Virus record (IMG/VR): IMGVR_UViG_3300047472_000248
Span: 1 to 52,314 of that record
Direction: 5' to 3' (one strand)
Length of the DNA stretch: 52,314 nt
Origin: a virus
Lineage: Duplodnaviria; Heunggongvirae; Uroviricota; Caudoviricetes
The notes under the pieces are model-generated. The model saw only the letters and a list, made by a program, of their open reading frames with translations, made no database searches and was not told the origin of the DNA. Shown one piece after another: positions 2,175-49,871 of this stretch; the stretch's first letter is position 1, and each line of letters starts with the position of its first letter. Both the position numbers and the translations under genes were made by a program.

Positions 2175-2186
2175 GTCAGTGCTGAC
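2175..2186. promoter_or_regulatory. Operator GTCAG-NN-CTGAC (#1)
   Basis: GTCAGtgCTGAC, upstream of TATAAT on the minus strand. Confidence 0.8.
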
Positions 2187-2198
2187 TGACCTTTCGAC

Positions 2199-2405
2199 CT
2201 AGTCGCGTTCGACGTGAAAGCCGATGGGCGAGCCCGGCGGGTCTTCGTCGTCATCGTTTCCGAACCGGCCGACCATGTGCTGCAGGGTGGCCAGCGCCAG
2301 CACGAACACGACGACGTTGCCGCTCACGAAGGTGATGGCAGCCGCTATCAGCAGGACCAGGACGTTGAAGATCAGCGAGTAGTGGATCGGTTGCACGGGT
2401 GCCAT
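2199..2405 (-). CDS. Small membrane protein
   Basis: 68 aa, two hydrophobic segments, acidic C-terminus. Confidence 0.6.
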   Translation of the reverse strand: MAPVQPIHYSLIFNVLVLLIAAAITFVSGNVVVFVLALATLQHMVGRFGNDDDEDPPGSPIGFHVERD

Positions 2406-2436
2406 CCTGGAAAGTCAGTGATGGCTGATTGTCCGG

Positions 2437-3960
2437 CTACGCAGCGAGCCGCGTCAAACCCAGGCCGGCATAGTCGAAGTCGTTCACGATGCCCTCGACG
2501 AAGCCCGGCGTCGCCCGGATGATGGCCTGACGCTCGCGGGCGTGCGTCACCAGGTGCGTGTTGAAGTCGTCGTCGACGTCCACGATGAACGCGACGTTGG
2601 GCAGGCCGTTCTTCTTCTCGCGCAGCCCGCGGCCGATGCGCTGGCGCAGCCCCGTCTCGTCCTTCCCGCCGCCGGCGATCGCGATCATCCCGACGGCCGG
2701 GCAGTCGACGCCGACGTCCATGATGGTGGAGCCGATCAGCACGTCCAGCTCACCGGTGCCGAGCCGGGCGATCTCGCGGTCGCGCTCCTTCTGGTTGCTC
2801 TCGCCCCAGACGAACGCGGCCCGGACACCCACGCGCGTGAGCATGTCCCTCAGGATCTTCCCGTGGTCCTTCTGCTTCACCAGGGCCATGCCCGTCAGGC
2901 CGTAGCGCACCGCGCGTGCCAGCTCGGCGACGAGCAGCTTGTTCCGATACTCGTTCTCGACGATGCCGTAGCGGTAGGCGCCCTGCCAGGGCGTGGAGCG
3001 GTAGAGCCGCTTCGGGCGGTGCTGCTCGGGCACCTTCAAGAACTTGAAGTAGGGCCGCGCCAGGATGCCGCTGTCGATCAGCTGCTTTTCGGTGACGCGA
3101 ATGCCGATCGGGCCGCCGCAGGCCATCAACCGCATGTTCGCTTCGGCATCGTCCTTCATGAAGGACGTCGCGGTCAGCGCCAGGCGGTAGGCGGCGTTCT
3201 TGCACGCATCCATCACCTCGAAGTAGCTGTCGCCGCTGGCCTCGTGCGCCTCTTCTGCGACGACGAACTCGAACATCTCGAGAACCTGGCGGGTCTTGGC
3301 GGCCGTCTCGGGATCGCGCAGCCGAGCGGCCAGCGTCTGCACCATGCCGACGCTGAATTGGGTAATGCGACGGCGCTTTTCGCCGTCCAGGGTGTATTCG
3401 ATTCCCCATTCGCCGTCACCGAGCACCGCGACCGGGGCGCCCGTCAGCGCTTCCATCGCGCGGTGCATCTGATACATCAGAATGCCCCGCGTCGTCAGGA
3501 AGAGCGTGCGCCGGCCGATGCGGGTGTAGGCGAGCCGGGCGATGCGGCTCTTGCCGCCGCCGGTCGCGATCTGCGCGGTGATCTGCCCGTGGCGCACCAG
3601 CTGATCGACGGTGCGCATATGGAAGGCATAGCGCTCCGTCTCGGGGAAGTCGTCGACCTTGGGGCGCTCCGGGCCCAGCGGGGGCGGTAGGGGCTTTTTC
3701 ACCAGCTGGATCTCGTAGCCCGCAGCGCGCAGCCCCTTGGTGACGTGCTGGACGAAGCCCGCGTGAAAGCGCGCGCTGTCGTAGTCGAAGAAGCTCGCGC
3801 GGCCATCCCAGCCCGACCCCGACGCCGAGTAGCCCGGCATGTGCTCGGCGCCCTCGACGCGGTAGCTCAGCAGGCGGTGTGCCTCGAGCAGCGCCGGCTT
3901 GTCGGCATCAAAGATTCGCGCGGTTGTCGCGTTCGCCGCTATTCGGAGGATCTTGGCCAT
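2437..3960 (-). CDS. Superfamily 2 (DEAD/DEAH-like) helicase
   Basis: ATGGGKS Walker A, VAEEAH Walker B variant, LTAT motif III, STIMDVGVD motif V, QRIGRGLR motif VI. Confidence 0.9.
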   Translation of the reverse strand: MAKILRIAANATTARIFDADKPALLEAHRLLSYRVEGAEHMPGYSASGSGWDGRASFFDYDSARFHAGFVQHVTKGLRAAGYEIQLVKKPLPPPLGPERPKVDDFPETERYAFHMRTVDQLVRHGQITAQIATGGGKSRIARLAYTRIGRRTLFLTTRGILMYQMHRAMEALTGAPVAVLGDGEWGIEYTLDGEKRRRITQFSVGMVQTLAARLRDPETAAKTRQVLEMFEFVVAEEAHEASGDSYFEVMDACKNAAYRLALTATSFMKDDAEANMRLMACGGPIGIRVTEKQLIDSGILARPYFKFLKVPEQHRPKRLYRSTPWQGAYRYGIVENEYRNKLLVAELARAVRYGLTGMALVKQKDHGKILRDMLTRVGVRAAFVWGESNQKERDREIARLGTGELDVLIGSTIMDVGVDCPAVGMIAIAGGGKDETGLRQRIGRGLREKKNGLPNVAFIVDVDDDFNTHLVTHARERQAIIRATPGFVEGIVNDFDYAGLGLTRLAA

Positions 3961-4001
3961 TCGGTGTGCAAATTTGCCTTATGGATGGTTCGTCGGATAC
4001 A

Positions 4002-4013
4002 GTCAGCCCTGAC
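4002..4013. promoter_or_regulatory. Operator (#2)
   Basis: AGTCAGccCTGACTTA in the divergent helicase/ParB spacer. Confidence 0.85.
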
Positions 4014-4015
4014 TT

Positions 4016-4045
4016 ATTATCGCCTTACACGTAGCCCGATGACAA
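4016..4045 (-). promoter_or_regulatory. Sigma70-like promoter for the helicase operon
   Basis: TTGTCA (4045-4040), 18-bp spacer, GATAAT (4021-4016), then 1 nt and the palindromic operator. Confidence 0.55.
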
Positions 4046-4701
4046 CCCTTCGCGTGGTCGACATGCCCCCGGGCAGCTTGAGCCCCAACCCTTGGAACAG
4101 CAACGTGCTGTCGCCCGAGGCGGAAATCAAGCTCGAGAACAGCATCAAGAAGTTCGGCATCTATCGCCCGATCACGTGTCGTGAGCTGGCGGACGGCACG
4201 CTGCAGATCCTCGGTGGCGAGCACACCGCGCAGGCCGCGGTGCGTCTCGGAATTGAACTGGTGCCGGTCGCCAACCTCGGGCGCGTGCCCGACAAGAAGG
4301 CCAAGGCGCTCGGGCTGGCCGACAACGGCCGCTACGGCGAAGAAGACGTGCTCCGCCTGTCGGAGATCTTGAAGGACCTGGCGGGCGAGGACCTCGCCTC
4401 GTTCCTGCCCATGACCGACGAAGACGTCGCGTCGATGTTCGCAATCAGCAATATAGGTCTCGACGACCTCGACTTGCCCGCGGACGACGAAAGATCCGAG
4501 GATCTGCCTGACCTCTCGCGTGGCGCGCCCGAGACGCACACCCTGATGCGCTTCAAGGTGCCGCTCGAGTCGGCCGCCGCCATCAAGCGCGTCATCGACC
4601 ACTTCATGAAGCGGTCGGGCTACGACCGCGACAAGGACGCGCTGGCCGGCGCCGGCATGGCGCTCGCCGACCTCTGCACCCAGATGGAGGCCGGCAAGTG
4701 A
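4039..4701 (+). CDS. ParB/Srx-like nuclease-domain protein 1
   Basis: LSPNPWNSN...SIKKFG...ILGGEH...ADN pattern of ParB N-terminal domains; start at ATG 4039. Confidence 0.85.
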   Translation: MTTLRVVDMPPGSLSPNPWNSNVLSPEAEIKLENSIKKFGIYRPITCRELADGTLQILGGEHTAQAAVRLGIELVPVANLGRVPDKKAKALGLADNGRYGEEDVLRLSEILKDLAGEDLASFLPMTDEDVASMFAISNIGLDDLDLPADDERSEDLPDLSRGAPETHTLMRFKVPLESAAAIKRVIDHFMKRSGYDRDKDALAGAGMALADLCTQMEAGK

Positions 4702-5101: not shown

Positions 5102-5748
5102 AGCCGCTGAAGATCGAACTCTGGGACCCGAAGGACCTGATCCCCTACGAGCACAACTCGAAGAAGCACCCCGACGAGCAGATCGCCAAGATCGCCGAGT
5201 CGACGCAGAAGTTCGGCTGGGACCAGCCGATCGTCGTCGACAAGCACGGGGTCATCATCAAGGGCCACGGCCGGCGCCTGGCCGCGCTGAAGCTGGGCCT
5301 GGCCAAGGTGCCCGTGCTGATCCGTGCGGACCTCACGCCCGACCAGGTGAAGGCCGCGCGCCTGGCCGACAACCGTGCCGCGCTCTCCGACATCGACGCG
5401 AACATGCTGCGCATCGAGATGGCCGAGATCACGGGCATCGACGAGCTGCTGGGCGGCATCTTCGACGACAAGGAACTCGACTTCCTGACGGCCGACCTGG
5501 GCGAGATGAACTCCGGCGCGTTCGTCACCGACATGGACCTCGTGGTCTCCGAGCAGAAGGCAGACCTCGACGGCCGAATCGCCGAAGCAACCCAGAAGCG
5601 CGTCCCGGTGGCCAAGGCCATGGGCGTGAAGGACGTGCCGGCCACTGCCAGCCTGGCGCTTGCCGCCTTCATGGTGCGCATCGAAGCCGAGACCGGCCTG
5701 AAGGGCGGCGACGCGCTCGCGAAGTGGGCCGAGAAGGAAATCGCATGA
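5098..5748 (+). CDS. ParB/Srx-like nuclease-domain protein 2
   Basis: LIPYEHNSKKH...FGWDQPIVVD...IIKGHGR...RLADN; start at ATG 5098. Confidence 0.9.
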   Translation: MKPLKIELWDPKDLIPYEHNSKKHPDEQIAKIAESTQKFGWDQPIVVDKHGVIIKGHGRRLAALKLGLAKVPVLIRADLTPDQVKAARLADNRAALSDIDANMLRIEMAEITGIDELLGGIFDDKELDFLTADLGEMNSGAFVTDMDLVVSEQKADLDGRIAEATQKRVPVAKAMGVKDVPATASLALAAFMVRIEAETGLKGGDALAKWAEKEIA

Positions 5749-6137
5749 GCGATTTGGCAGGTCCGGAGGCGCCCGTCAGTGCTGACTTTCGCGGTCTGCC
5801 GCGGCGCATCCACATCGGGCACTTCACGTTCCGGATCTACCTCCGGGACGAGACGGGCAACGCAATCCTGGCCGATGCCTGGGGCAACTGCGACTGCCAG
5901 AAGGCCGTCATCGACATCCACAAGGAAACGCCGGCCTGGCTGGCTGCCAACACGGTCCAGCACGAGATCACGCACGCGATCAACTTCGTCTACGGCATCA
6001 CTGACGAGACGACCGAAGAGCAGTTCACCACGCAGCACACGAACGGCCTGATCGAAGTCCTGCTGAAGAACCCGCGCTACGCGACCTGGCTGGCCCGCCA
6101 GCTGCGCGCAATGCGAAAGGAAGCCTCCCATGACTGA
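5745..6137 (+). CDS. HExxH-motif putative Zn metallopeptidase-like protein
   Basis: QHEITHAI motif; ATGA-coupled start at 5745. Confidence 0.6.
   Translation: MSDLAGPEAPVSADFRGLPRRIHIGHFTFRIYLRDETGNAILADAWGNCDCQKAVIDIHKETPAWLAANTVQHEITHAINFVYGITDETTEEQFTTQHTNGLIEVLLKNPRYATWLARQLRAMRKEASHD
5775..5786. promoter_or_regulatory. Operator (#3, intragenic)
   Basis: GTCAGtgCTGACTT near the 5' end of the 5745 gene. Confidence 0.65.
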
Positions 6138-9880: not shown

Positions 9881-10227
9881 CCGCCAACCAGGTCGAGCTG
9901 CTGAGCTTCGTGCGCGCGCCCGCGCCGGCCACGGCCGCCGACCACGGGCACATCGACTTCGACCAGATGCTGGACGCCATGTCCTGGCAGCCGTCGAAGC
10001 AGGCCGCCCACTTCTCGATCCGGGCGCTGCAGAAGCGCGGGCTGCTGGAAAAGCTCCCAGGCCTGCAGCTTCGACGTGGACGTCACCGGGTCTGCTTCCG
10101 GGTCACCGAGGCCGGCCTGAAGGCTCTGAACGGTTCCGTTCCGGAGCCCTCCGAACCGTCTCTGGTGGACCAAAGTCAGCCGGAACTTCCCGACCCGGGT
10201 GTCTCCCTGGAGGTGTTCGAAGACTGA
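9868..10227 (+). CDS. Winged helix-turn-helix DNA-binding protein
   Basis: Start at ATG 9868; LTANQVELL...SIRALQKRGLLEK...FRVTEAG is a MarR/PadR-like wHTH pattern. Confidence 0.65.
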   Translation: MRRLTANQVELLSFVRAPAPATAADHGHIDFDQMLDAMSWQPSKQAAHFSIRALQKRGLLEKLPGLQLRRGRHRVCFRVTEAGLKALNGSVPEPSEPSLVDQSQPELPDPGVSLEVFED

Positions 10228-10275
10228 AAAACACCCGCTTTTGGGGCTTTTTCTCGTCCCGGGGCTTCCTCTCGC

Positions 10276-10288
10276 TAACTCGTTGATT
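10276..10288 (-). promoter_or_regulatory. IHF consensus site
   Basis: Minus strand AATCAACGAGTTA matches WATCAANNNNTTR, inside the AT-rich island upstream of terS. Confidence 0.45.
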
Positions 10289-10306
10289 TCATTGAGAAAA
10301 ACACGA

Positions 10307-10333
10307 AGTTAATGAAAAGTGGGTTTTCACAGT
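10307..10333 (+). repeat. 27-bp direct repeat, copy 1 (contains TGAAAA-N5-TTTTCA)
   Basis: AGTTAATGAAAAGTGGGTTTTCACAGT, identical to 49103-49129. Confidence 0.9.
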
Positions 10334-10379
10334 ATTAAGACACTTTTAAAGACTAAGAACTAACAACCAATTAAGGCAA

Positions 10380-10395
10380 GTTAGTGATCACTAAC
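10380..10395. repeat. Perfect 16-bp palindrome GTTAGTGATCACTAAC
   Basis: Read directly from the sequence. Confidence 0.85.
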
Positions 10396-10412
10396 ATCGT
10401 TCGCAATCGTAA

Positions 10413-10424
10413 GTCAGCGCTGAT
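10413..10424. promoter_or_regulatory. Operator (#4, one mismatch)
   Basis: TAAGTCAGcgCTGATT upstream of terS. Confidence 0.7.
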
Positions 10425-10483
10425 TGACGATCTGGCAGTCCGGATCGACAATCGAGCCTGCTCTGCACCGATCTCCTCCGACC

Positions 10484-10516
10484 GGCCGCACCCGTTCGCG
10501 GGGCGGCCACTTTTTT
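10484..10516 (+). terminator. Intrinsic terminator immediately upstream of the terS RBS
   Basis: GGCCGC-A-CCCG-TTCG-CGGG-GCGGCC hairpin followed by AC and T6. Confidence 0.75.
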
Positions 10517-10529
10517 GTCTGGAGGCCGC

Positions 10530-11192
10530 ATGAGCGAGACCACCGACAAGAAGCCCGCGTCGAAGTCCCGGGTCGGCCAGAAGGGCTACGGCGGTCGCAA
10601 GAAAGGCTCCCGCTCCCTGACCCCGGCAGAGAAGGCCGCAGCAGCCGCTGCATGGCGCGCCGGCGAGGTCACCCTGGCCCAGCTCTCGGAGAAATACAAA
10701 AAGCGCCCTGAGACCTTCTCGCGGCTCTTCGGGAAGATGGGCATCAAGAAGGGCGAGGCTGCCGAAGAGGTCGGTCGCAAGGTGACCGCCCAGATCGAAG
10801 CGCGCGCAGTCACGGACGTCGAGCAAACGCTGCAGCAGATAGCCGAGACGAAGAAGACGTTCGTGGGCATGCACAACGCCCTGGCGCGTCTCGCGTTCAC
10901 CGAGATCAAGAAGGCGGTCGAGGCCAAGGTGCCCCTGTCGCAGCTGCGCTTGGCCATGCAGACGCTCCAATCGGCCAGCGCGGTCATCAGCAAGTCCCGG
11001 GAGGAGATCTACACCCTCCTGCAGATCGAGAAGCACGACGACAACCTTGGCGATGACGACCTGCCGGAGCTGCTCGTGCGCGAGCTGACCGCCGGCGAGG
11101 TGAAGCAGCTGGCAGAGCAGGACGACGAAGAGAAGGCCCTCACCGACGAGCTCAATGCCGATGGCATGAACCTGGACGAGGCGCCGGAGTGA
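10530..11192 (+). CDS. terS: Terminase small subunit
   Basis: GGAGG RBS; N-terminal HTH-like segment; directly upstream of and overlapping terL. Confidence 0.75.
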   Translation: MSETTDKKPASKSRVGQKGYGGRKKGSRSLTPAEKAAAAAAWRAGEVTLAQLSEKYKKRPETFSRLFGKMGIKKGEAAEEVGRKVTAQIEARAVTDVEQTLQQIAETKKTFVGMHNALARLAFTEIKKAVEAKVPLSQLRLAMQTLQSASAVISKSREEIYTLLQIEKHDDNLGDDDLPELLVRELTAGEVKQLAEQDDEEKALTDELNADGMNLDEAPE

Positions 11193-12514
11193 AGGTTCGG
11201 CCCCCAGAGGAGCTGGTCGGCACCGAGCTGGCCAGTTCGATCGCCGCTGCCACGGACGAGATCCGGGAGCAGTTTCGCGCGCCGAAGAACACGCTCTTCC
11301 TGCACCAGAAGCAGATGGAGGTCTACCAGACCCCGAAGCGCTTCCGGGTGGTGTGCGCCGGCCGCCGGTGGGGGAAGACGCAGCTCGCGAAGGTTTCGAT
11401 CATCCGCTTCGCCCGGGTGAAGAAGCGGCTGATCTGGTATGTGGCGCCGAGCTACCGCATGGCGCGCCAGATCATGTGGCCGGAGCTGCTCGAGGCGATC
11501 CCCAAGCGCTGGATCTACAAGGTCAACGAGACCATGTTGACGATCCGGCTGATCAACGGCACGCGGATCGAGCTCAAGGGCGCCGACAACCCCGACGCGC
11601 TGCGCGGGGTGGGCATCCACTTCCTGGTGATGGACGAGGTCCAGGACATCCACCCCGAGGCCTGGACGAAGGTGCTGCGCCCGACGCTGGCATCGACCGG
11701 CGGCCACGCGCTCTTCATTGGCTCGCCGAAGTCCTACAACTTCCTCTACGACCTCTACCAGCTCGGCCAGCGCGACGACATGCCGGCGTGGGAGTCGTGG
11801 CAGTTTCCGACCATCACCTCGCCCTTCATCCCGAAGCACGAGATCGACGCCGCGCGCGGCGACATGGACGAGAAGAGCTTCCGGCAGGAGTTCGAGGCCT
11901 CGTTCGAGTCGATGTCCGGGCGCGTCTACTATCCCTTCGACCGGCACATCCACGCGGCCAAGCCGCGGCCGTTCAACCCGAACCTGCCGCTGCTCATCGG
12001 GCAAGACTTCAACATCGACCCGATGTCGGCCTGCGTCTTCCAGAGACAGGACAACGGCGAGATCTGGGCGGTCGACGAGATCAGCCTGCCGGCGTCGAAC
12101 ACCGACGAGATGTGCGACGAGCTGGAGCGCCGCTACTGGCGCTTCATCGACCGCATCACGAACTACCCCGACCCGGCCGGCGCGACGCGCGGGCACCAGC
12201 GGGGCGAGTCCGACATCGACATCATGCGGGAGCGCGGTTTCAAGCGGAACGTGTATCACAGGAAGCACCCGCCGGTGGCTGACCGCGTGAATGCCGTCAA
12301 CCGCATGCTGAAGACTGCGGACGGCCAGATCCGCCTCTACGTCGACCCGCGCTGCAAGAAGCTGATCGAGTCCTTCGAGCAAACGCTCTACGTGCCCGGC
12401 GGCCGCGAGGTCGACAAGAGCGCCAGCATCGAGCACATGGCCGATGCTGCCGGCTACTTCATCCAATACGCATACCCGACCCGCAAGTTGGAGCTGTTGG
12501 GCGTCTCCCTGTGA
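11189..12514 (+). CDS. terL: Terminase large subunit
   Basis: AGRRWGKT Walker A, LRGVG, VMDE Walker B, IGSP coupling motif, GQDFN nuclease Asp, HMADA. Confidence 0.97.
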   Translation: MKVRPPEELVGTELASSIAAATDEIREQFRAPKNTLFLHQKQMEVYQTPKRFRVVCAGRRWGKTQLAKVSIIRFARVKKRLIWYVAPSYRMARQIMWPELLEAIPKRWIYKVNETMLTIRLINGTRIELKGADNPDALRGVGIHFLVMDEVQDIHPEAWTKVLRPTLASTGGHALFIGSPKSYNFLYDLYQLGQRDDMPAWESWQFPTITSPFIPKHEIDAARGDMDEKSFRQEFEASFESMSGRVYYPFDRHIHAAKPRPFNPNLPLLIGQDFNIDPMSACVFQRQDNGEIWAVDEISLPASNTDEMCDELERRYWRFIDRITNYPDPAGATRGHQRGESDIDIMRERGFKRNVYHRKHPPVADRVNAVNRMLKTADGQIRLYVDPRCKKLIESFEQTLYVPGGREVDKSASIEHMADAAGYFIQYAYPTRKLELLGVSL

Positions 12515-12520
12515 GCGTTT

Positions 12521-12550
12521 TTGACAGTCAGGACTGACTTACCACATACT
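12521..12550 (+). promoter_or_regulatory. Sigma70-like promoter for the portal gene with the operator in its spacer
   Basis: TTGACA (12521-12526), 18 bp, CATACT (12545-12550); the operator core fills 12527-12538. Confidence 0.6.
12527..12538. promoter_or_regulatory. Operator (#5)
   Basis: AGTCAGgaCTGACTTAC upstream of the portal gene. Confidence 0.85.
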
Positions 12551-12562
12551 CCACGGACTTAT

Positions 12563-14122: not shown

Positions 14123-14195
14123 CCCAGAGCGCGCCCAAGAGACCGCGGCGCATCAAGACCAACCACGGCCGAGCGACTGGCCACATAGGTGAGAA

Positions 14196-15119: not shown

Positions 15120-15154
15120 CCCGCGCGCCGCGCTGCATCGACCGATAGCGGAAT

Positions 15155-15183
15155 TTGCAGTGCAGAGGCGCGCCAAATAGAAT
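15155..15183 (+). promoter_or_regulatory. Sigma70-like promoter for the major capsid gene
   Basis: TTGCAG, 17 bp, TAGAAT, then 1 nt and the operator. Confidence 0.65.
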
Positions 15184-15185
15184 CA

Positions 15186-15197
15186 GTCAGTCCTGAC
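15186..15197. promoter_or_regulatory. Operator (#6)
   Basis: AGTCAGtcCTGACTTAC upstream of the capsid gene. Confidence 0.85.
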
Positions 15198-15237
15198 TTA
15201 CGTCTGGCTGGTTCCCACCCTCTCAAGGAAGCATTCA

Positions 15238-16140: not shown

Positions 16141-16152
16141 CCGTGTTGGTAA

Positions 16153-16164
16153 GTCAGACCTGAC
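16153..16164. promoter_or_regulatory. Operator (#7)
   Basis: GTAAGTCAGacCTGACTTAC with perfect 9-bp arms. Confidence 0.88.
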
Positions 16165-16178
16165 TTACGGTATAAGGG

Positions 16179-16204
16179 CGGGGGCACTTGTTGCCCCCGT
16201 TTTT
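16179..16204 (+). terminator. Intrinsic terminator after the capsid gene
   Basis: CGGGGGCA-cttgt-TGCCCCCG followed by T5. Confidence 0.8.
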
Positions 16205-16230
16205 CATCTTCATCCACACAGAGGACCCTC

Positions 16231-16836: not shown

Positions 16837-16839
16837 GCC

Positions 16840-19565: not shown

Positions 19566-19567
19566 AT

Positions 19568-19597
19568 TTGGTCCTTTCCCTGGGCGGATAGTAGACT
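19568..19597 (+). promoter_or_regulatory. Sigma70-like promoter for the tail tube gene
   Basis: TTGGTC, 18 bp, TAGACT, then 1 nt and the operator. Confidence 0.55.
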
Positions 19598-19599
19598 CA

Positions 19600-19611
19600 G
19601 TCAGTCCTGAC
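19600..19611. promoter_or_regulatory. Operator (#8)
   Basis: AGTCAGtcCTGACTTAC upstream of the tail tube gene. Confidence 0.85.
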
Positions 19612-19637
19612 TTACTAATCCGCTCACAGGAGAACAG

Positions 19638-20498: not shown

Positions 20499-20503
20499 CG
20501 TAA

Positions 20504-20515
20504 GTCAGCTCTGAC
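20504..20515. promoter_or_regulatory. Operator (#9)
   Basis: GTAAGTCAGctCTGACT upstream of the tail chaperone gene. Confidence 0.85.
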
Positions 20516-20587
20516 TCTGCGCCGGCCCTGTGTGGCCGGCGCACGTCCCACAACTCGCACCCCATTTATCGGCCTGGAGGCACCCCC

Positions 20588-21258: not shown

Positions 21259-21281
21259 CCCATCACGACCACGACACCAGC

Positions 21282-25052: not shown

Positions 25053-25055
25053 CCT

Positions 25056-25421: not shown

Positions 25422-25433
25422 TCGGCGCCATAA

Positions 25434-25445
25434 GTCAGAGCTGAC
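25434..25445. promoter_or_regulatory. Operator (#10)
   Basis: CATAAGTCAGagCTGACTTATG with perfect 10-bp arms. Confidence 0.88.
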
Positions 25446-25473
25446 TTATGCCTTTATCCGTCGGAGATCGTAA

Positions 25474-25485
25474 GTCAGGACTGAC
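25474..25485. promoter_or_regulatory. Operator (#11)
   Basis: GTAAGTCAGgaCTGACT, 40 bp from #10 and 3 nt before the gpL-like ATG. Confidence 0.85.
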
Positions 25486-25488
25486 TGA

Positions 25489-31596: not shown

Positions 31597-32108
31597 TGCC
31601 TACGCCCGCCACCCTCATCGTTCAGGCAGACGGCACTGCCATCATCGAATCGACCGGCCTTCCCATGCCGGCGCAGCCCGACGACAAGCACGTCTTCGAC
31701 TGGACGAGCCACACCTGGGTCGACCCGCGCACCCTCGACGACCTGAAGTCCGATCAGTGGGAGCTGATGAAGGCAGCGCGCGAGACGGCTGAGTTTGGCG
31801 GCTTCACCTGGGATGGGTCCGACTTCGACAGCGACAGCGAGTCGCAGCGAAAGATCCAGGGTGCCGTGCAGATGGCACTCATTGCCGCGGCCGCCAGCCA
31901 GCCTTTCAGCATCGACTGGACGCTGGCGGACAACACGGTGCGCACGCTCAGCGGCGCCGACATGATCAACGTCGGCCTGGCCATGGGCACCTTCGTCAGC
32001 GGCATCTACGAACAGGGCAGGGCGCTGCGCGAGCAGATCGACGCGGCCACCACCCCCGAACAAGTCCAGGCGATTGCCTGGTCGTCCATCAGCGTAAGTC
32101 AGTCCTGA
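31596..32108 (+). CDS. DUF4376-like tail fibre assembly protein
   Basis: FDSD.ESQ.KIQGA...IDWTLADN motif. Confidence 0.75.
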   Translation: MPTPATLIVQADGTAIIESTGLPMPAQPDDKHVFDWTSHTWVDPRTLDDLKSDQWELMKAARETAEFGGFTWDGSDFDSDSESQRKIQGAVQMALIAAAASQPFSIDWTLADNTVRTLSGADMINVGLAMGTFVSGIYEQGRALREQIDAATTPEQVQAIAWSSISVSQS

Positions 32109-32109
32109 C
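32098..32109. promoter_or_regulatory. Operator (#12)
   Basis: GTAAGTCAGtcCTGACT spanning the DUF4376 stop, upstream of fibre A. Confidence 0.85.
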
Positions 32110-32127
32110 TCTCACATAGGAACCCTC

Positions 32128-34148: not shown

Positions 34149-34156
34149 TTTGGTAA

Positions 34157-34168
34157 GTCAGGCCTGAC
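34157..34168. promoter_or_regulatory. Operator (#13)
   Basis: GTAAGTCAGgcCTGACT. Confidence 0.85.
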
Positions 34169-34185
34169 TATGGGAAACTCGCGCC

Positions 34186-34542: not shown

Positions 34543-34545
34543 TTA

Positions 34546-34557
34546 GTCAGTGCTGAC
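34546..34557. promoter_or_regulatory. Operator (#14)
   Basis: TTAGTCAGtgCTGACTT. Confidence 0.85.
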
Positions 34558-34583
34558 TTTCACCAACTGCAAAAGGAACTGAA

Positions 34584-40815: not shown

Positions 40816-40826
40816 GCAGAAAGTAA

Positions 40827-40838
40827 GTCAGTGCTGAC
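40827..40838. promoter_or_regulatory. Operator (#15)
   Basis: GTAAGTCAGtgCTGACT upstream of the lysis cassette, with an extra CTGACT half-site after it. Confidence 0.85.
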
Positions 40839-40861
40839 TGAAACTGACTGATGAGGATTGC

Positions 40862-41260
40862 ATGGCCGAGGATCAAGTTTCCCCTGGAGAGTTTCAAGGA
40901 CTGCGCCGCGATGTGGGGGAGGTGAAGGACACCATGAAGGCGCTGGTGCAGGCCTTCAACCGACTCGATCTGCTGGCGCAAAGCCTCGAGACCCATGCCA
41001 GCCAGGTCACCAAGCACGACAACCGCCTGGACTCCATCGAGCATCTGCTGCACCAGAGCGAACTCCGGGAGGCCCAGCGTGCCAGCTTCGAGCAGCGTAT
41101 CCAGGCGCTCGAAGAGGCCGCCAAGGAAGACCACCTGAAGATGGCCACTGCCGAAGCCCGCTTTCACACCCTGATGTGGGGCGTTCGCTCGATCTGGAGC
41201 GTGCTCGGCATCGGTGGGATCGCCGCCGTGCTGCGCTACCTGTCGCACGGCGCCCTGTAA
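40862..41260 (+). CDS. Holin/antiholin-like protein (coiled coil plus C-terminal TM helix)
   Basis: Precedes the endolysin; one C-terminal hydrophobic segment. Confidence 0.55.
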   Translation: MAEDQVSPGEFQGLRRDVGEVKDTMKALVQAFNRLDLLAQSLETHASQVTKHDNRLDSIEHLLHQSELREAQRASFEQRIQALEEAAKEDHLKMATAEARFHTLMWGVRSIWSVLGIGGIAAVLRYLSHGAL

Positions 41261-44101: not shown

Positions 44102-44102
44102 G

Positions 44103-44316: not shown

Positions 44317-44318
44317 TA

Positions 44319-44330
44319 GTCAGTTCTGAC
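44319..44330. promoter_or_regulatory. Operator (#16)
   Basis: TTAGTCAGttCTGACTTA. Confidence 0.85.
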
Positions 44331-44350
44331 TTATTTTCTATAAGGTAGCC

Positions 44351-44761
44351 ATGCGTCACACCACCCACCAGAAGACCACTGTCGCCCTGACGTCGACGCT
44401 GGCACAGATCCGGTCGATCGACGTTGCGACTCATTCGGTCCTGTCGCTGGTGATCGTCAACACCGGCGCAAATCCGGTGACTGCCTTTGCACTCGAAGGC
44501 AAGGTGACGCGCTACGAACAGGCCGGCACGACGACCGAGGGCTTGCCGGACGAATACGTCACGCTCAAGAACTCGTCCTTCTCCACGGCTGACTTCAACG
44601 TCGTTGCTTCCACCGGTGAGCTGACCAACCTGGCCGCCGGCGCGTCCGTGATGGTCCACCTGAACGTCGCGCTGCTCGACCACATTCACCTGAAGGCCGC
44701 GTCGACTCTGGGCACCACGCTCTCGATCCACGCTGTCGGTTCGCAAGGCCCGGAGCAGTAA
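44351..44761 (+). CDS. Beta-rich structural/adaptor protein
   Basis: 136 aa with an alternating beta-strand pattern; first gene of the cassette. Confidence 0.55.
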   Translation: MRHTTHQKTTVALTSTLAQIRSIDVATHSVLSLVIVNTGANPVTAFALEGKVTRYEQAGTTTEGLPDEYVTLKNSSFSTADFNVVASTGELTNLAAGASVMVHLNVALLDHIHLKAASTLGTTLSIHAVGSQGPEQ

Positions 44762-44764: not shown

Positions 44765-46426
44765 ATGCGCCAAGCACTGAACCTTGGAGGGGGCATCGTC
44801 GTCGACACGACGACCGCAACGGCATCTGGCGGTGGCCTGCTGGATTTCGCGCTGAACTACGTCGCGCGAATTGCCAACTTCGGCTCGTCGGCCGCCGACT
44901 CGCGCGTCGGCACGGCTCGCATGTTCTGGCGTGCCAGCACGCTCTACAAGCTCAATGCCATTCGCAGCAATGGCGGCAACCTCTACCAGGCAACGCAGGC
45001 GGGGACTTCTGCTGTCTCTGGCGGCCCGACGGGCACGACCACTGCGAACGATGGCACGGTGGTGTGGACCTACATCGGCGCGGACCCCGATCGGTGGCAG
45101 GCAAGCCACGACTATTCGGCAGCAGCTGCCGGCACGGTGGTCACCAACCTGGGCGCCCAGTATCGCCTAGTGACGCCCGGCACGAGTGCCGCAAGTGGCG
45201 GACCGAACGCGAACAACACGAACATCACGGATAACACCTGTGTCTGGGCGCGCATCAGCCAGTATTTCGTCGACACGGTCAACGGCAGCGATGCGAATGC
45301 CGGCACAGACAGCATGCTGTCCAAGAAGACGCTGCCGACGGCGCCAACCCAACTGACGCCCAATGTCAAATACTGGATTGCCGCAGGTTCCGAGCTGCCC
45401 CTTAGCTCGCTGAATCGCACCGGTGGGCTTTACTACGCCCAGCCGTGGAGCATCGTCACCGTCTACGACACCGCGACTGGAAACGAGGTGCGCACGCACC
45501 CAAACTACTACCTGCGCCACCTCAACTCGGGCACCGCCGGTGGGCCGACGGCTGCAGAGTTGAAGTCGAAATACTTCACGATCAGGGGTGACGCGAACAG
45601 CACACTCGGTTCGGCAATTGCCGCTGCGGGCACGCCGACGGCCGGCGCGGGTGGCACTGCTGGTGGTGGGTCTGCGCTGCTGCGCGGCGCTTACATCACG
45701 GGCTGCCCGATCGGTGTGAACTGCCAGGGCACCACGAATGCCATCTGGCGTGTCGAGGACTGCGTGCTGGTGAACAACGGGTCGCAGCACGAGGCTTTCA
45801 CTGGGGCGCCCGCTGGCGGCTCTAACTTGCGTCTGGAGGGTGCAGGCATCGGCAGCTCGTTCGCTCGTCTCTACATCCAGGCAGACGGCTACGGAGAAGA
45901 CAGTATCTGGATGTCCGTCGCGACCCAGCCAAAGAACTGGACCTTTACGGACGTCGTGATCCGTCACCGGCCAGCCCAGGTCATGAACTCGGCACACAGC
46001 GACGGCATCCAGTTTGGCCGCTACCCTGGTAATGCGACGCTGCGCCGGGTGATCATCGAGCACGTCATGCCTGAAACCGACCTGTTTGATTCAGGTCTCG
46101 GCGTCGACCCTGTTGGCGCAGCACTGATCATGGATGGCTCTGGCACTGCCGGAACCAATGGACTCGTCATCGAGGACTGCATCTTCGCGAGCAACCTGCT
46201 CGCGCTCAACATGCAGGACACATTCACGATGCGCCGCAGTCTGAACTACGTGCGCAAGCTCGCTCGTGATCAGACCGCTCGGGTCGGAGCTCTTAACAAT
46301 GCCAATCCGACGATGGATGGCTGTCTGAACGTTCTGGTGAATGCGAACAGCGATGCCGACGCGCTCTATCTTGGCGCGGGCCCCACAGCGACCGGAGCTG
46401 GTTTCATCGAAGCGCTGACGAGCTGA
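44765..46426 (+). CDS. Tailspike/depolymerase-like protein (two CBM-like repeats plus a right-handed beta-helix)
   Basis: Repeats W.AS..Y.........Y.....GTSA.SGGP.......D.T.VW; YFVDTVNGSDAN.G beta-helix cap; HSDGIQF. Confidence 0.7.
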   Translation: MRQALNLGGGIVVDTTTATASGGGLLDFALNYVARIANFGSSAADSRVGTARMFWRASTLYKLNAIRSNGGNLYQATQAGTSAVSGGPTGTTTANDGTVVWTYIGADPDRWQASHDYSAAAAGTVVTNLGAQYRLVTPGTSAASGGPNANNTNITDNTCVWARISQYFVDTVNGSDANAGTDSMLSKKTLPTAPTQLTPNVKYWIAAGSELPLSSLNRTGGLYYAQPWSIVTVYDTATGNEVRTHPNYYLRHLNSGTAGGPTAAELKSKYFTIRGDANSTLGSAIAAAGTPTAGAGGTAGGGSALLRGAYITGCPIGVNCQGTTNAIWRVEDCVLVNNGSQHEAFTGAPAGGSNLRLEGAGIGSSFARLYIQADGYGEDSIWMSVATQPKNWTFTDVVIRHRPAQVMNSAHSDGIQFGRYPGNATLRRVIIEHVMPETDLFDSGLGVDPVGAALIMDGSGTAGTNGLVIEDCIFASNLLALNMQDTFTMRRSLNYVRKLARDQTARVGALNNANPTMDGCLNVLVNANSDADALYLGAGPTATGAGFIEALTS

Positions 46427-46428
46427 CT

Positions 46429-48305: not shown

Positions 48306-48311
48306 TGGTAA

Positions 48312-48323
48312 GTCAGCGCTGAC
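48312..48323. promoter_or_regulatory. Operator (#17)
   Basis: GTAAGTCAGcgCTGACT upstream of phoH. Confidence 0.85.
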
Positions 48324-48365
48324 TGTGCCAGAATGGGATGACGACCTCACAAGGACCATCCCTTC

Positions 48366-49094
48366 ATGGCAAAGCGCAAGCAAGTGGCTCCCCGTGGTAG
48401 AACTTCCCGGCACGAGGTCGACGCCGGCACCGAAGCTCTCCTGACCCCCATGTCCCGCGCACCCGCGCGACAGCCCCTCGAGGCACGCTCTGAGACCCAG
48501 AAGCGCTACATCAGCGCGATCAAGTCCCACGACGTGATCTTCGGGATCGGCCCCGCCGGCGGCGGCAAGACCTACGTGCCGACCGCCCTGGCTGCCGAAG
48601 CCCTCATGGACAAGCGCATCGAGCGCATCGTGATCACCCGCCCCGCGGTGGAGTGCGACGAGCAGTTCGGCTTCATCCCTGGCGAGATCGAGGACAAATA
48701 CGAGCCCTACCTGCAGCCGTTCCGGCAGACCTTCATCGAGCGCATGGGCAAGGGCCCGTTCGAATACGCCCTGAAGGCCGGCCGCATCGCGCCCATGCCG
48801 CTGGCCTTCATGCGCGGCATCACCTTCAACGACTGCTGGGTCCTGCTGGACGAGGCACAGAACCTGACCCACAAGCAGTTCAAGATGTTCCTCACCCGCA
48901 TCGGGGAGAACTGCAAGGTCATCATCTCTGGCGATCCGGACCAGGACGACATCGGTGGTGGGGGCCTCCCTGATGCAGTGCGTCGCACCAGCTCGATCCG
49001 GGGTTTCAAGGTGGTGGAGTTCACGGTGAAAGACGTGGTCCGCTCCGGGATCTGCATGGAGGTCTTGAAGGCCTACGAGACGCCTCGCGGGTGA
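48366..49094 (+). CDS. phoH: PhoH-family ATPase
   Basis: GPAGGGKT, TRPAVE...GFIPG, PLAFMRG.TF, LDEAQN and SGDPDQ.D motifs. Confidence 0.95.
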   Translation: MAKRKQVAPRGRTSRHEVDAGTEALLTPMSRAPARQPLEARSETQKRYISAIKSHDVIFGIGPAGGGKTYVPTALAAEALMDKRIERIVITRPAVECDEQFGFIPGEIEDKYEPYLQPFRQTFIERMGKGPFEYALKAGRIAPMPLAFMRGITFNDCWVLLDEAQNLTHKQFKMFLTRIGENCKVIISGDPDQDDIGGGGLPDAVRRTSSIRGFKVVEFTVKDVVRSGICMEVLKAYETPRG

Positions 49095-49102
49095 TGTGGC
49101 TG

Positions 49103-49129
49103 AGTTAATGAAAAGTGGGTTTTCACAGT
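49103..49129 (+). repeat. 27-bp direct repeat, copy 2
   Basis: Identical to 10307-10333; lies in an AT-rich island. Confidence 0.9.
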
Positions 49130-49176
49130 TAAACCCCTTTCAATAATTCAGAACACCTAAACCCATAAACGCGCGC

Positions 49177-49851
49177 ATGAGGCACACAACCGAGGAGCTG
49201 GAGACCCTGGCGCTGCAGATCCATCCCGACCACCGGGCCGGCGAAGCAGCGCTCCTTCGAACGCGGTGGTTCGACTACCACCAGATGCACCCCGTAGAGG
49301 CCACCTACCACTACGCGGCCGCATACGTCGAGCAGACCCGGCTGTGGGTCGAGAAGACGATCGACGCCGGCGAGCCCGAGCGCCCCCGGCCGTTCACGCC
49401 AGACGACATCTTCAAGTCTCGCGACCTGACCTCGATGTGGCTCGCGCGCAGGGCTGCTGACGCGCTGGGCATCCCCTACAACTTCGTGATGCAGTTCACG
49501 GCAGACCGCGCCCTGGTGCGCTACTTCTCGCGCTTCCCGCGGCCCAACATGCTCTACGGCGAGGAGTTCGAGGGCGACCTGGCCGATGCGTGGAAGCTCC
49601 GGCTGAGCCAGAGCATGGTGTGGGGCACGCACCCCAACCTGCACGCCTCGAAGTTCGCCTTCCAGGCCGAGCAAGAGCGCCACCTCGGCTTCGTCGTCGA
49701 CCAGGTGCGCACCCGGCCGGCCCCGCAGCACCGTCTGCTGGCTCGCCTGCTGCACGAGGACGTTCTGAACGAGACCCAGGTTGCCATGCACTTCGGCGAC
49801 CGGATGCTGGACGATGCCCGGCGGTATGCAGGCACCCTTGTCGCGGCGTAA
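49177..49851 (+). CDS. Hypothetical protein upstream of the replication genes
   Basis: 224 aa, normal codon use, first gene after the AT-rich island. Confidence 0.75.
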   Translation: MRHTTEELETLALQIHPDHRAGEAALLRTRWFDYHQMHPVEATYHYAAAYVEQTRLWVEKTIDAGEPERPRPFTPDDIFKSRDLTSMWLARRAADALGIPYNFVMQFTADRALVRYFSRFPRPNMLYGEEFEGDLADAWKLRLSQSMVWGTHPNLHASKFAFQAEQERHLGFVVDQVRTRPAPQHRLLARLLHEDVLNETQVAMHFGDRMLDDARRYAGTLVAA

Positions 49852-49859
49852 TGCAGTAA

Positions 49860-49871
49860 GTCAGCCCTGAC
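49860..49871. promoter_or_regulatory. Operator (#18)
   Basis: GTAAGTCAGccCTGACT, directly followed by TATAAT (49872-49877), upstream of the hfq-like gene and dnaB. Confidence 0.85.

What the first reader, a model, noticed from the sequence alone, without database searches (positions are those of the whole stretch)
2175..49871. Window-wide palindromic operator network (AAGTCAG-NN-CTGACTT) marking most operon junctions
Seen: 17 exact GTCAG-NN-CTGAC cores plus one 1-mismatch copy (2175, 4002, 5775, 10413, 12527, 15186, 16153, 19600, 20504, 25434, 25474, 32098, 34157, 34546, 40827, 44319, 48312, 49860), often extended to GTAAGTCAG..CTGACTTAC. My rough chance expectation at about 66% GC is under 0.1 copy per window. 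Nearly all lie in short intergenic gaps before helicase, terminase, portal, capsid, tail, fibre, lysis, phoH and hfq/dnaB genes. The central 2 bp vary freely, as expected for a dimeric protein site. Inference: one master regulator controls both replication and virion genes, which suits a phage kept silent as a plasmid. I recall an AT-rich analogue (AAGTAAG-NN-CTTACTT) in enterobacterial SSU5-like genomes, but this is unverified; if true, the site and its regulator co-evolved across the group.
Basis: partly seen in the sequence, partly recalled or inferred. Interest (0 to 1): 0.85.

Follow-up and report, generated by a model that had tools for sequence, protein, structure and literature searches.

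The report
Dispersed repressor operators of a phage-plasmid
A 14-20 bp DNA palindrome repeated about 40 times between the genes of this 116-kb plasmid-like phage is most likely where the phage's own repressor binds to keep most of its promoters silent; this style of control is known, but I found no description of it for this large, SSU5-related family.

Summary
The window has 17 exact GTCAG-NN-CTGAC copies (0.15 expected) plus the 1-mismatch copy at 10413. The complete 116,314-bp virus genome has 34. The real unit is (G)T(A/C)-AGTCA-N4-TGACT-(T/G)A(C). With one mismatch allowed there are 45 sites, 40 of them intergenic in a genome that is 86% coding.

The sites sit on sigma-70-like promoters at varying offsets (about -26, -18, and +2 to +11). 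That placement fits a repressor, not an activator or an RNA hairpin.

The best candidate regulator lies outside the window at genome 62782-63291. It is a 169-aa Xre-type HTH protein beside the TrfA/ParA plasmid cassette. Four sites cluster in its divergent control region, and it is modelled as a dimer.

Homologues occur in about 900 SSU5-like plasmids, including pHCM2 and pMT1. Each temperate relative tested has its own over-represented palindrome (AGTCA, ARTCA or GTAAG/TAAGTA types), and the type tracks the recognition helix. The syntenic lytic phage nickie has neither the regulator nor a palindrome.

No binding experiment exists. The design resembles P1 C1 and mycobacteriophage L5. I found no paper on it for the SSU5 family. 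This scan had already reached the same reading on the other half of this genome and on several relatives.

The parts
2174..2187 (.). Site GGTCAGTGCTGACT (exact 12-bp core, 1 mismatch in the 14-mer). On the minus strand it lies 8 nt upstream of a TATAAT box, ahead of the leftward ORF 1337-2134.
   Evidence: the minus-strand box is my own reading of the sequence
4001..4014 (.). Site in the divergent gap between the helicase gene (2437-3960, minus) and the ParB-like gene (4054-4701, plus)
5774..5787 (.). Site CGTCAGTGCTGACT inside the 5' end of ORF 5745-6137. It is one of the few sites within coding sequence.
10412..10425 (.). One-mismatch site AGTCAGCGCTGATT. It overlaps the -35 of a promoter-like TTGACG-17-GACAAT, ahead of the terS-like gene at 10530.
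12526..12539 (.). Site in the spacer of TTGACA-18-CATACT, ahead of the portal gene at 12563
15185..15198 (.). Site 2 nt after the -10 of TTTGCA-18-TAGAAT, ahead of the major head gene at 15238
16152..16165 (.). Site 12 nt after the major head gene stop, followed by TATAAG and a G+C hairpin with a T run. pAMS5a and Rhizobium phage RHph_N1_10 have the same layout.
19599..19612 (.). Site just after TAGACT/GATAGT -10-like boxes, ahead of the Ig-domain tail gene at 19638
20503..20516 (.). Site 5 nt after the stop of the tail gene, followed by a G+C hairpin. No sigma-70-like promoter is visible, so it may act as a roadblock.
25433..25446 (.). First of two sites 40 bp apart, 11 nt after CATAAT, ahead of the minor tail gene at 25489
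25473..25486 (.). Second site of the pair, 3 nt before the start codon of the minor tail gene
32097..32110 (.). Site overlapping the end of ORF 31596-32108, 18 nt before the tail-fibre gene at 32128
34156..34169 (.). Site in the 37-nt gap before ORF 34186-34542 (TTGGTA on the left, TATGGG on the right)
34545..34558 (.). Site in the 41-nt gap before ORF 34584-35057
40826..40839 (.). Site 11 nt downstream of an exact TATAAT, ahead of ORF 40913-41260
44318..44331 (.). Site 2 nt after the -10 of TTGACG-17-GAGAAT, ahead of ORF 44351-44761
48311..48324 (.). Site 6 nt after the previous stop codon (TGGTAA-17-CAGAAT around it), ahead of phoH at 48366
49859..49872 (.). Site fused to an exact TATAAT (AGTCAGCCCTGACT|TATAAT), ahead of hfq at 49923 and dnaB at 50273

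Best explanation
The palindromes are operators: DNA sites for a dimeric, phage-encoded helix-turn-helix repressor that holds this SSU5-like phage-plasmid in its plasmid (lysogenic) state.

The functional unit is AGTCA-N4-TGACT, with the two half-site centres 9 bp apart and 3-bp flanks of the form GTA/TAC.

The most likely binder is the 169-aa Xre-type protein encoded at genome 62782-63291 (minus strand), 10 kb beyond the window. Its N-terminal HTH would read one half-site, and its C-terminal helical domain would make the dimer.

Where a site overlaps the -35 box, the spacer, the -10 box or the start of a sigma-70-type promoter, bound repressor would block initiation. Where no promoter is visible, in short gaps after the capsid and tail genes, it may block read-through transcription, or it may cover a promoter of the phage's own sigma factor.

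The plasmid replication and partition cassette carries no sites apart from the repressor's own control region, so it would stay expressed.

Shown here: the sites, their statistics, their position on promoter-like sequence, the conservation of the regulator, and the co-variation of motif and regulator. Inferred: binding, repression and roadblock action.
For: 1. Enrichment and placement.
- 17 copies against 0.15 expected in the window; 34 in the genome against 1 for the control pattern.
- 40 of 45 near-exact sites are intergenic in a genome that is 86% coding.

2. Link to promoters.
- 10 of the 13 plus-strand TATAAT hexamers in the whole genome lie within 35 nt of a site centre.
- 32% of sites, against 1% of random and 2% of other intergenic positions, have a promoter score of 9 or more out of 12.
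- Site centres fall at about -26, -18, or +2 to +11 of the predicted start.
- The tool's own scan of 10000-29999 finds only three promoter-like sites, and all three touch a palindrome.

3. Candidate regulator.
- It matches Pfam HTH_31 (E 1.3e-6) and lies next to TrfA and ParA.
- Four sites lie in its 560-bp divergent control region, one beside a minus-strand TATAAT.
- Its best solved relative is an 'Immunity repressor protein', 8bny (E 7e-6).
- It is the positional orthologue of CYRAN_45 (34% identity over 68 aa, E 4e-14). CYRAN_45 is annotated 'putative repressor' and is expressed 10-fold above background in the E. coli LF82 lysogen (PMC9928086).

4. Dimer model. ipSAE 0.51, best of 3 controls 0.00. 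That mark was reached by 20 of 30 proteins solved as pairs and by 1 of 23 solved as single chains. The runs agree in at least 89% of contacts, pLDDT is at least 75, and the interface is residues ~97-151. My own alignment was used, and likeness to solved repressor dimers may help the score.

5. Family-wide pattern.
- Regulator homologues occur in 917 PLSDB plasmids; portal homologues occur in 966.
- Five other complete ~115-kb relatives (pAMS5a and IMG/VR genomes G001-G004) have 28-40 AGTCA-N4-TGACT sites and one homologue each.
- Two A. baumannii plasmid types have different motifs (AGTCA against GTAAG) and different regulators. This argues against a host factor.
- All 9 AGTCA/ARTCA-type genomes have Met at regulator position 55. 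All 5 GTAAG/TAAGTA-type genomes have Phe or Leu there.
- The syntenic lytic phage nickie has no homologue and no enriched palindrome.

6. Sites occupy the same junctions in this genome, in pAMS5a and in Rhizobium phage RHph_N1_10: before the portal gene, before and after the capsid gene, before and after the tail protein gene, and before minor tail L.

7. Near-sites carry single uncompensated mismatches, and the Rhizobium phage has many hybrid AATCA...TGACT sites. This fits half-site recognition rather than RNA pairing.
Against: - There are no binding or expression data for this genome or any relative.
- About half of the sites have no convincing sigma-70-like promoter (scores 6.5-8), so what they do is guesswork.
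- A few sites lie inside genes: 5775, and 53430 and 66423 outside the window.
- In pAMS5a and Pararhizobium p5 the regulator gene points the same way as the early genes, which is a Cro-like position. The protein could therefore be a lytic-phase repressor or a dual regulator.
- The co-variation rests on 14 genomes that are not phylogenetically independent, and Met55 is common across the whole protein family.
- The regulator has no LexA-type cleavage domain, so the route to induction is unknown.
- My gene calls are a home-made GC3 heuristic.
Confidence: 0.72

Rival explanations
1. The sites are operators of a phage-encoded DNA-binding protein, but not the Xre-type protein at 62782-63291. Candidates include another small regulator, a Cro-like partner, or the 60-aa ORF at 63583-63765. 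Alternatively that protein could be only one of two proteins sharing the sites, as CI and Cro do.
For: The genome has many small ORFs with no family match. In pAMS5a and Pararhizobium p5 the Xre gene sits in a Cro-like, co-directional position. I did not survey the whole genome for HTH proteins.
Against: The Xre protein is the only regulator I found that is present in every palindrome-bearing relative tested, absent from the lytic relative, and flanked by a cluster of sites. Its recognition helix also tracks the motif type. The small neighbouring ORFs are barely conserved and have no HTH match.
Confidence: 0.12
2. The palindrome is a site for a transcriptional activator, or a MerR-like spacer-binding switch, that turns on phage promoters during lytic growth.
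For: Several sites lie exactly in the spacer next to a perfect TATAAT with a poor -35 box (49860 in the window; 72284, 73328 and 91352 outside it). MerR-type activators bind at that position (my own knowledge).
Against: Offsets vary from about -26 to +11, and many sites lie downstream of the -10 box, where a bound protein blocks RNA polymerase. Spacers are 16-18 nt rather than the 19-20 nt of MerR promoters. The regulator is Xre-type, not MerR-type. The lytic relative nickie runs the same gene set without the motif.
Confidence: 0.07
3. The element works as an RNA hairpin: an 8-9 bp stem that serves as an RNase processing site, a stabiliser, a terminator part, or a target of the phage Hfq.
For: Any perfect palindrome can fold once it is transcribed. 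All sites lie in the direction of transcription between genes, and some are followed by hairpins (16153, 20504). The phage encodes an Hfq.
Against: - The stem sequence itself is invariant while the centre varies.
- Imperfect copies carry single uncompensated changes, and hybrid AATCA...TGACT sites are common in the Rhizobium phage.
- Sites in promoter spacers are not transcribed from those promoters.
- No T run follows the palindrome itself.
- The same half-site is kept in genomes of 42% to 66% GC.
- The motif type follows a DNA-binding protein, not the host.
Confidence: 0.04
4. The sites bind a host protein, or serve partition, packaging or DNA modification. Examples would be a ParB-type centromere or a methyltransferase/restriction target.
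For: The window encodes two ParB/Srx-like proteins, and parS sites are palindromes (my own knowledge).
Against: - The lytic relative nickie also has ParB-like and methyltransferase genes but no palindrome.
- The sites are tied to promoters.
- Two plasmid types in the same host species use different motifs.
- The motif is nearly absent from bacterial chromosomes sampled: 2 of 60 genomes of one alphaproteobacterial order have a single copy each.
Confidence: 0.05

Closest known systems
Phage-plasmid P1: C1 repressor with 22 operators dispersed over the genome (PMC8546580)
   Same: A phage kept as a low-copy plasmid. One master repressor has some tens of sites spread over the whole genome, and they control both replication and morphogenesis functions. 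The repressor gene has its own operators.
   Different: P1 operators are asymmetric 17-bp sites (ATTGCTCTAATAAATTT), whereas these are perfect palindromes. The candidate here is a 169-aa Xre/HTH_31 protein. I did not compare it directly with C1, and Pfam gave it only HTH-type matches. Homologues of the P1 accessory proteins Coi, Lxc and Ant were not looked for.
Cluster A mycobacteriophages (L5, Bxb1): immunity repressor with operators and 'stoperators' (PMC6550527)
   Same: Some 20-30 repressor sites lie throughout the genome, many in short gaps that are not at promoters. Motif and repressor differ between related phages and co-vary, which defines immunity groups. Some members are extrachromosomal (parA-carrying).
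   Different: Stoperators are asymmetric and oriented with transcription, and the repressor is reported to bind them to block elongation. Here the sites are symmetric, so orientation cannot be read, and at least a third sit on promoter cores.
Lambdoid/434-type CI-Cro switches (Xre/HTH_3 family)
   Same: An Xre-type HTH regulator. Palindromic operators with half-sites about one helical turn apart. A divergent control region with several operators next to the regulator gene. A weak profile match to 434 Cro and 434 repressor.
   Different: Lambdoid phages have about six operators in two clusters, not 35-45 spread over 116 kb. The candidate has no S24 (LexA-like) cleavage domain.
SSU5-like phage-plasmids (SSU5, pHCM2, pMT1, Cyrano/pLF82, Acinetobacter ~110-kb plasmids)
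   Same: The portal protein is 51-55% identical. Gene order is the same from helicase and ParB through terminase, virion genes, phoH, hfq-dnaB and cobT-moxR to polIII. The regulator is homologous and sits in the same slot. Each has its own dispersed palindrome.
   Different: This genome is 65% GC, from an unknown host and probably alphaproteobacterial by its nearest relatives (Methylobacterium pAMS5a, Rhizobium phages). It has a TrfA-type replicon. Its motif is AGTCAG-NN-CTGACT, where the enterobacterial members have GTAAG/TAAGTA types.

Membership tests
Dispersed-operator master-repressor regulon (functional class: P1 C1, L5 gp71) | Tens of copies of one short motif spread over the whole phage genome, far above chance | tested here: met
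   34 exact copies and 45 with one mismatch allowed in 116 kb. 0.15 expected per 52 kb; control pattern 1
Dispersed-operator master-repressor regulon (functional class: P1 C1, L5 gp71) | Sites overlap promoters or lie in intergenic gaps in the path of transcription | tested here: met
   40 of 45 sites intergenic. 10 of 13 TATAAT boxes within 35 nt of a site. All 3 tool-called promoters in 10-30 kb touch a site
Dispersed-operator master-repressor regulon (functional class: P1 C1, L5 gp71) | A cognate repressor encoded by the element, which binds the sites and silences lytic genes | not testable with these tools
   A candidate was found by position, its own site cluster, presence/absence and co-variation. 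Binding and repression need experiments.
P1 C1 family proper | Asymmetric 17-bp operator | tested here: not met
   The sites here are perfect palindromes. The P1 consensus is given in PMC8546580.
L5-type stoperators | [quoted passage not shown] | tested here: not met
   The core is symmetric. The only asymmetry in the flanks is explained by overlapping -10 boxes.
Xre/Cro-CI-type HTH repressor with palindromic operator | Xre-type helix-turn-helix domain | tested here: met
   Pfam HTH_31 E 1.3e-6, above the gathering score (29.0 against 27). Profile match to 8bny 'Immunity repressor protein' at 7e-6 and weak matches to 434 Cro.
Xre/Cro-CI-type HTH repressor with palindromic operator | Homodimer matching the two-fold symmetry of the site | tested here: met
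   Model only: ipSAE 0.51 against best control 0.00. The mark was reached by 20 of 30 solved pairs and 1 of 23 single chains. Runs agree at least 89%, pLDDT at least 75. The pass may owe something to likeness to solved repressor dimers.
Xre/Cro-CI-type HTH repressor with palindromic operator | Autoregulatory control region with several operators next to the regulator gene | tested here: met
   Sites at genome 63376, 63458, 63553 and 63609 lie in the 560-bp gap between the regulator and the divergent early genes. Relatives likewise have sites there.
SSU5-like phage-plasmid | SSU5-type virion and replication gene set in conserved order | tested here: met
   Portal 50.8% identical to SSU5 and 52-55% to Klebsiella and Acinetobacter members. 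Synteny with Cyrano, nickie and pAMS5a.
SSU5-like phage-plasmid | Plasmid replication and partition genes | tested here: met
   TrfA (E 5.8e-39) and a ParA-type ATPase at genome 60285-62477

The most novel reading that the evidence does not exclude
The whole SSU5 supercommunity (about 900-1000 sequenced plasmids, including pHCM2 of Salmonella Typhi and pMT1 of Yersinia pestis) may share one undescribed lysis-lysogeny circuit. In it, a small Xre-type dimer would gate nearly every transcription unit through 30-45 palindromic sites. The family would be split into immunity groups by one- or two-base changes in the half-site (AGTCA, ARTCA, AGTAA, TAAGT), matched by changes in the recognition helix. 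Sites without promoters would act as symmetric roadblocks. The total site load (sites times plasmid copy number) would titrate the repressor and couple copy number to induction.
Probability: 0.3. Interest if true: 0.7.

Novelty: new member of a known kind. Interest (0 to 1): 0.5.

Why it matters
SSU5-like phage-plasmids are among the commonest large plasmids of Klebsiella, E. coli, Enterobacter, Acinetobacter, Salmonella Typhi and Yersinia pestis. I found no paper describing how they choose between plasmid life and lysis.

A defined operator and a named candidate repressor make that question directly testable by EMSA, ChIP and reporters.

They also predict which elements should be immune to, or incompatible with, one another, according to motif type. 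This high-GC environmental member shows that the circuit is old and conserved across Alpha- and Gammaproteobacteria.

The principle itself, one repressor with many dispersed sites, is textbook for P1 and L5, so this fills a gap and is not a new mechanism.

Tried and rejected
- Word-index homologue search and a viral-contig scan with the regulator found nothing beyond the query. The exhaustive HMMER search and tblastn were needed.
- The viral-contig scan with the portal gave only 5 distant loci.
It did not reveal a host.
- The same scan of viral contigs also hit its limit, but it did pick out several ~115-kb relatives, which I then used.
- The reversed pattern was a poor control for AGTCA-N4-TGACT, because TCAGT-N4-ACTGA is itself part of extended sites (5 exact). 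I rely on the shuffles instead.
- The small ORF next to the regulator has no family match and is barely conserved, so I could give it no role.
- The in-window candidates have no HTH-family match: the ORF at 9868 has no Pfam hit and only an unnamed PHROG.
- The 42-kb Roseobacter phage-plasmid of PMC10090143 is an unrelated element.
- Four literature searches found no description of operators in the SSU5 family. The library lacks most subscription journals, so this is not proof that none exists.
- I did not fold the sites as RNA. A perfect palindrome always folds, so the result would not discriminate.

Full report
**The observation**

Dinucleotide-preserving shuffles give a mean of 0.15 and never more than 2. 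The copy at 10413 has one mismatch, GTCAGCGCTGAT.

The window is the first 52,314 nt of a 116,314-nt IMG/VR virus record rated 100% complete. The whole genome has 34 exact copies, against 1 for the reversed control pattern.

Aligning the 34 copies shows the conserved unit is wider than the 12-bp core: G(20)-T(25)-A/C(18/12)-A(32)-GTCAG-NN-CTGAC-T(33)-T/G/A-A/T-C/A. That is AGTCA-N4-TGACT with GTA/TAC-like flanks. The two central bases vary.

Allowing one mismatch in AGTCA-N4-TGACT gives 45 sites. Forty are intergenic, although 86% of the genome is coding by my GC3-based gene call.

**What kind of genome this is**

- The portal protein is 51-55% identical to those of SSU5, Cyrano, Klebsiella and Acinetobacter phage-plasmids. 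It has homologues in 966 PLSDB plasmids.
- Gene order follows the SSU5 plan: helicase, ParB-like, ABC ATPases, small and large terminase, portal, capsid, tail, fibres, phoH, hfq, dnaB, then beyond the window cobT-like, MoxR-like, a sigma-70-region-2 protein and PolIII alpha.
- At genome 60285-62477 lie a TrfA replication initiator (E 5.8e-39) and a ParA ATPase.
- The nearest relatives by DNA are Rhizobium phages and the 117.7-kb Methylobacterium plasmid pAMS5a.

**Anatomy of the sites**

The palindromes are tied to sigma-70-like promoters, but at no fixed distance from them.

- Ten of the 13 plus-strand TATAAT hexamers in the whole genome lie within 35 nt of a site centre.
- 32% of sites have a promoter score of 9 or more out of 12. 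The figure is 1% for random positions and 2% for other intergenic positions.
- Several arrangements recur:
  - the palindrome fused to the -10 box (AGTCAGCCCTGACT|TATAAT at 49859, and three more outside the window);
  - the palindrome in the spacer after a good -35 box (TTGACA at 12521);
  - the palindrome 2-11 nt after the -10 box (15185, 40826, 44318);
  - the palindrome 8-10 nt upstream of the -10 box.
- Site centres therefore fall at about -26, -18, or +2 to +11. These are positions where a bound protein hinders RNA polymerase, and none is at the -41 or upstream positions typical of activators.
- The tool's own scan of 10000-29999 calls only three promoter-like sites on either strand, and all three touch a palindrome.
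- About half of the sites have no convincing promoter, for example 20503, 32097, 34545 and 48311. They sit in gaps of 30-60 nt right after a stop codon.
- The site after the capsid gene (16152) is followed by a terminator-like hairpin. pAMS5a and Rhizobium phage RHph_N1_10 have the same layout.

**The candidate regulator**

No in-window protein has an HTH-family match. Ten kilobases beyond the window, at genome 62782-63291 on the minus strand, lies a 169-aa protein with a Pfam HTH_31 (Xre-type) domain. It sits next to the ParA/TrfA cassette and diverges from a 60-aa ORF and the cobT-like early operon.

- The 560-bp control region between them holds the densest cluster of sites in the genome: 63376, 63458, 63553 and 63609. 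One of them lies beside a minus-strand TATAAT that would serve the regulator gene itself.
- Apart from that region and one site at 57573, the stretch from 53.6 to 63.3 kb, which includes the plasmid cassette, is free of sites.
- The protein is the positional orthologue of Cyrano CYRAN_45 (34% identity over 68 aa, E 4e-14). CYRAN_45 is annotated as a putative repressor and is expressed 10-fold over background in the E. coli LF82 lysogen (PMC9928086).
- Its family has 1,167 representative clusters at E up to 1e-3. tblastn finds it in 917 PLSDB plasmids, almost the same set that carries the portal.
- The closest solved relative is an 'Immunity repressor protein', 8bny (E 7e-6), with weak matches to 434 Cro and 434 repressor.
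- A homodimer model passes the controls. ipSAE is 0.51 against 0.00 for the best of three controls. That mark was reached by 20 of 30 proteins solved as pairs and by 1 of 23 solved as single chains. The runs agree in at least 89% of contacts, and pLDDT is at least 75. The interface lies in the C-terminal residues ~97-151, which leaves the HTH free. This supports a dimer but does not show one.

**Comparison across relatives**

I looked for over-represented palindromes de novo in 40-118-kb stretches of relatives.

| Genome | Over-represented palindrome |
|---|---|
| pAMS5a | AGTCA-N4-TGACT, 40 exact |
| IMG/VR G001-G004 (complete, ~115 kb) | AGTCA-N4-TGACT, 28-37 exact each |
| A. baumannii CP115642 | AGTCA-N4-TGACT, 9 exact in 40 kb |
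| Pararhizobium p5, Rhizobium phage RHph_N1_10 | A(A/G)TCAATATTGA(C/T)T |
| A. baumannii ZW85p2 type | (A)GTAAG-NN-CTTAC(T), 11 exact |
| Klebsiella plasmid pSC7 | GTAAGTACTTAC, 6 exact |
| pHCM2 | GTAAG-NN-CTTAC, 3 exact |
| Cyrano | TAAGTA-NN-TACTTA, plus GGTAAGTGCTTACC in front of CYRAN_45 |

- Each of these genomes has one homologue of the regulator.
- Pseudomonas phage nickie is syntenic with the window gene for gene but has no plasmid cassette. It has no homologue in its whole genome and no enriched palindrome in the syntenic 50 kb that I examined.
- Two plasmid types of the same host species, A. baumannii, use different motifs and carry different regulators. This argues against a host factor.
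- In the recognition helix (own residues 46-58, GYATGNIMTMIETG), all nine AGTCA/ARTCA-type genomes have Met at position 55. The five GTAAG/TAAGTA-type genomes have Phe or Leu. The sample is small and not phylogenetically independent, so I treat this as suggestive.
- Sites occupy the same gene junctions in this genome, pAMS5a and RHph_N1_10, although the proteins are only about 50% identical.

**Rivals**

- RNA hairpin: unlikely. The stem sequence is fixed rather than co-varying. Imperfect copies carry single uncompensated changes, and hybrid half-sites are common. Spacer sites are not transcribed from their own promoter, and no T run follows the palindrome.
- Activator: fits poorly with sites downstream of the -10 box, and with the lytic relative doing without the motif.
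- ParB, packaging or modification targets: unlikely, because nickie keeps those genes without the palindrome.
- Generic bacterial repeat: unlikely. Of 60 evenly sampled genomes from the order of a Bradyrhizobium strain, only 2 had a single copy each. The true host is unknown, so this is only a proxy.
- A different phage regulator, or a second protein sharing the sites, is not excluded.

**Comparison with the known**

The design is that of P1, where C1 binds 22 dispersed operators (PMC8546580). It is also that of cluster A mycobacteriophages, where a repressor binds operators and 'stoperators' throughout the genome and motif and repressor co-vary between phages (PMC6550527).

It differs from both in using a perfect palindrome and an Xre-type dimer, which is closer to the 434/lambda type of protein-DNA recognition. 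So it works like P1 or L5 at the level of the network, and like a Cro/CI-type protein at the level of the site. It is not a member of the C1 or gp71 site types, because their asymmetric sites are not met here.

Four literature searches found no description of operators in the SSU5 family.

This scan had already reached the same reading for the other half of this genome (e1-1861139) and for Acinetobacter and enterobacterial relatives (e1-1684504, e1-1868169, e1-1840098). I used those notes as leads and re-derived the points above independently.

**Verdict**

It is a new member of a known kind of control system.

- Confidence that the sites are operators of a phage-encoded repressor is about 0.8.
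- Confidence that the binder is the Xre-type protein at 62782-63291 is about 0.65-0.7.
- Interest is moderate. The principle is ordinary, but I found no published account of it for this clinically widespread family.

Noticed in passing
window 16166-16210: Directly after the site at 16152 come TATAAG and a strong hairpin (GGGCGGGGGCAC...GCCCCCG) followed by TTTTT, just downstream of the major head gene. pAMS5a (around 40272) and Rhizobium phage RHph_N1_10 (L025:23641) have the same order: capsid stop, palindrome, terminator-like hairpin.
   Followed up: partly
window 20517-20550: A G+C-rich hairpin (GCGCCGGCC...GGCCGGCGC) without a T run follows the site after the Ig-domain tail gene. The next 480 nt hold only a small minus-strand ORF (20653-20856).
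   Followed up: no
window 44765-46426: This 553-aa ORF has clearly lower third-position GC (0.75) than its neighbours (about 0.9), and my GC3-based gene caller missed it. It may be a recently acquired gene.
   Followed up: no
window 25433-25486: Two palindromes lie 40 bp apart centre to centre, about four helical turns, ahead of the minor tail gene. Similar pairs occur outside the window at genome 91351/91435 and 103735/103831. Cooperative binding or looping is possible.
   Followed up: no
L016-L018 (pAMS5a), L020 (A. baumannii CP115642), L014 (Cyrano): Some relatives have a second spacing class 4 bp wider: AGTCA-N8-TGACT (8 exact copies in pAMS5a) and TAAGT-N8-ACTTA (in Cyrano). The half-site often reads as a 4-bp tandem (GTCAGTCA, GTAAGTAAG), so the palindrome can be read in two registers. 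I have no explanation for this.
   Followed up: partly
L014, L022, L024 (Cyrano, pHCM2, Klebsiella pSC7): A second, unrelated palindrome, AAACAA-N-TTGTTT, occurs three times in each enterobacterial relative and in none of the other genomes examined. It may be the site of another regulator.
   Followed up: no
genome 67403-68056 (L005:15403-16053): A phage-encoded protein with sigma-70 region 2 (Pfam E 3.1e-5) lies in the early operon downstream of the site at 66104. Palindromes without a sigma-70-like promoter might overlap promoters read by this factor.
   Followed up: partly
window 49923-50255: An Hfq homologue (Pfam Hfq E 3.5e-7) lies directly upstream of dnaB. An Hfq is annotated in the same slot in the A. 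baumannii plasmid CP115642.
   Followed up: no
window 2413-2426: A weak extra site, AGTCAGTGATGGCT (one mismatch in the 14-mer), lies in the gap between two minus-strand ORFs upstream of the helicase gene's 3' end.
   Followed up: no
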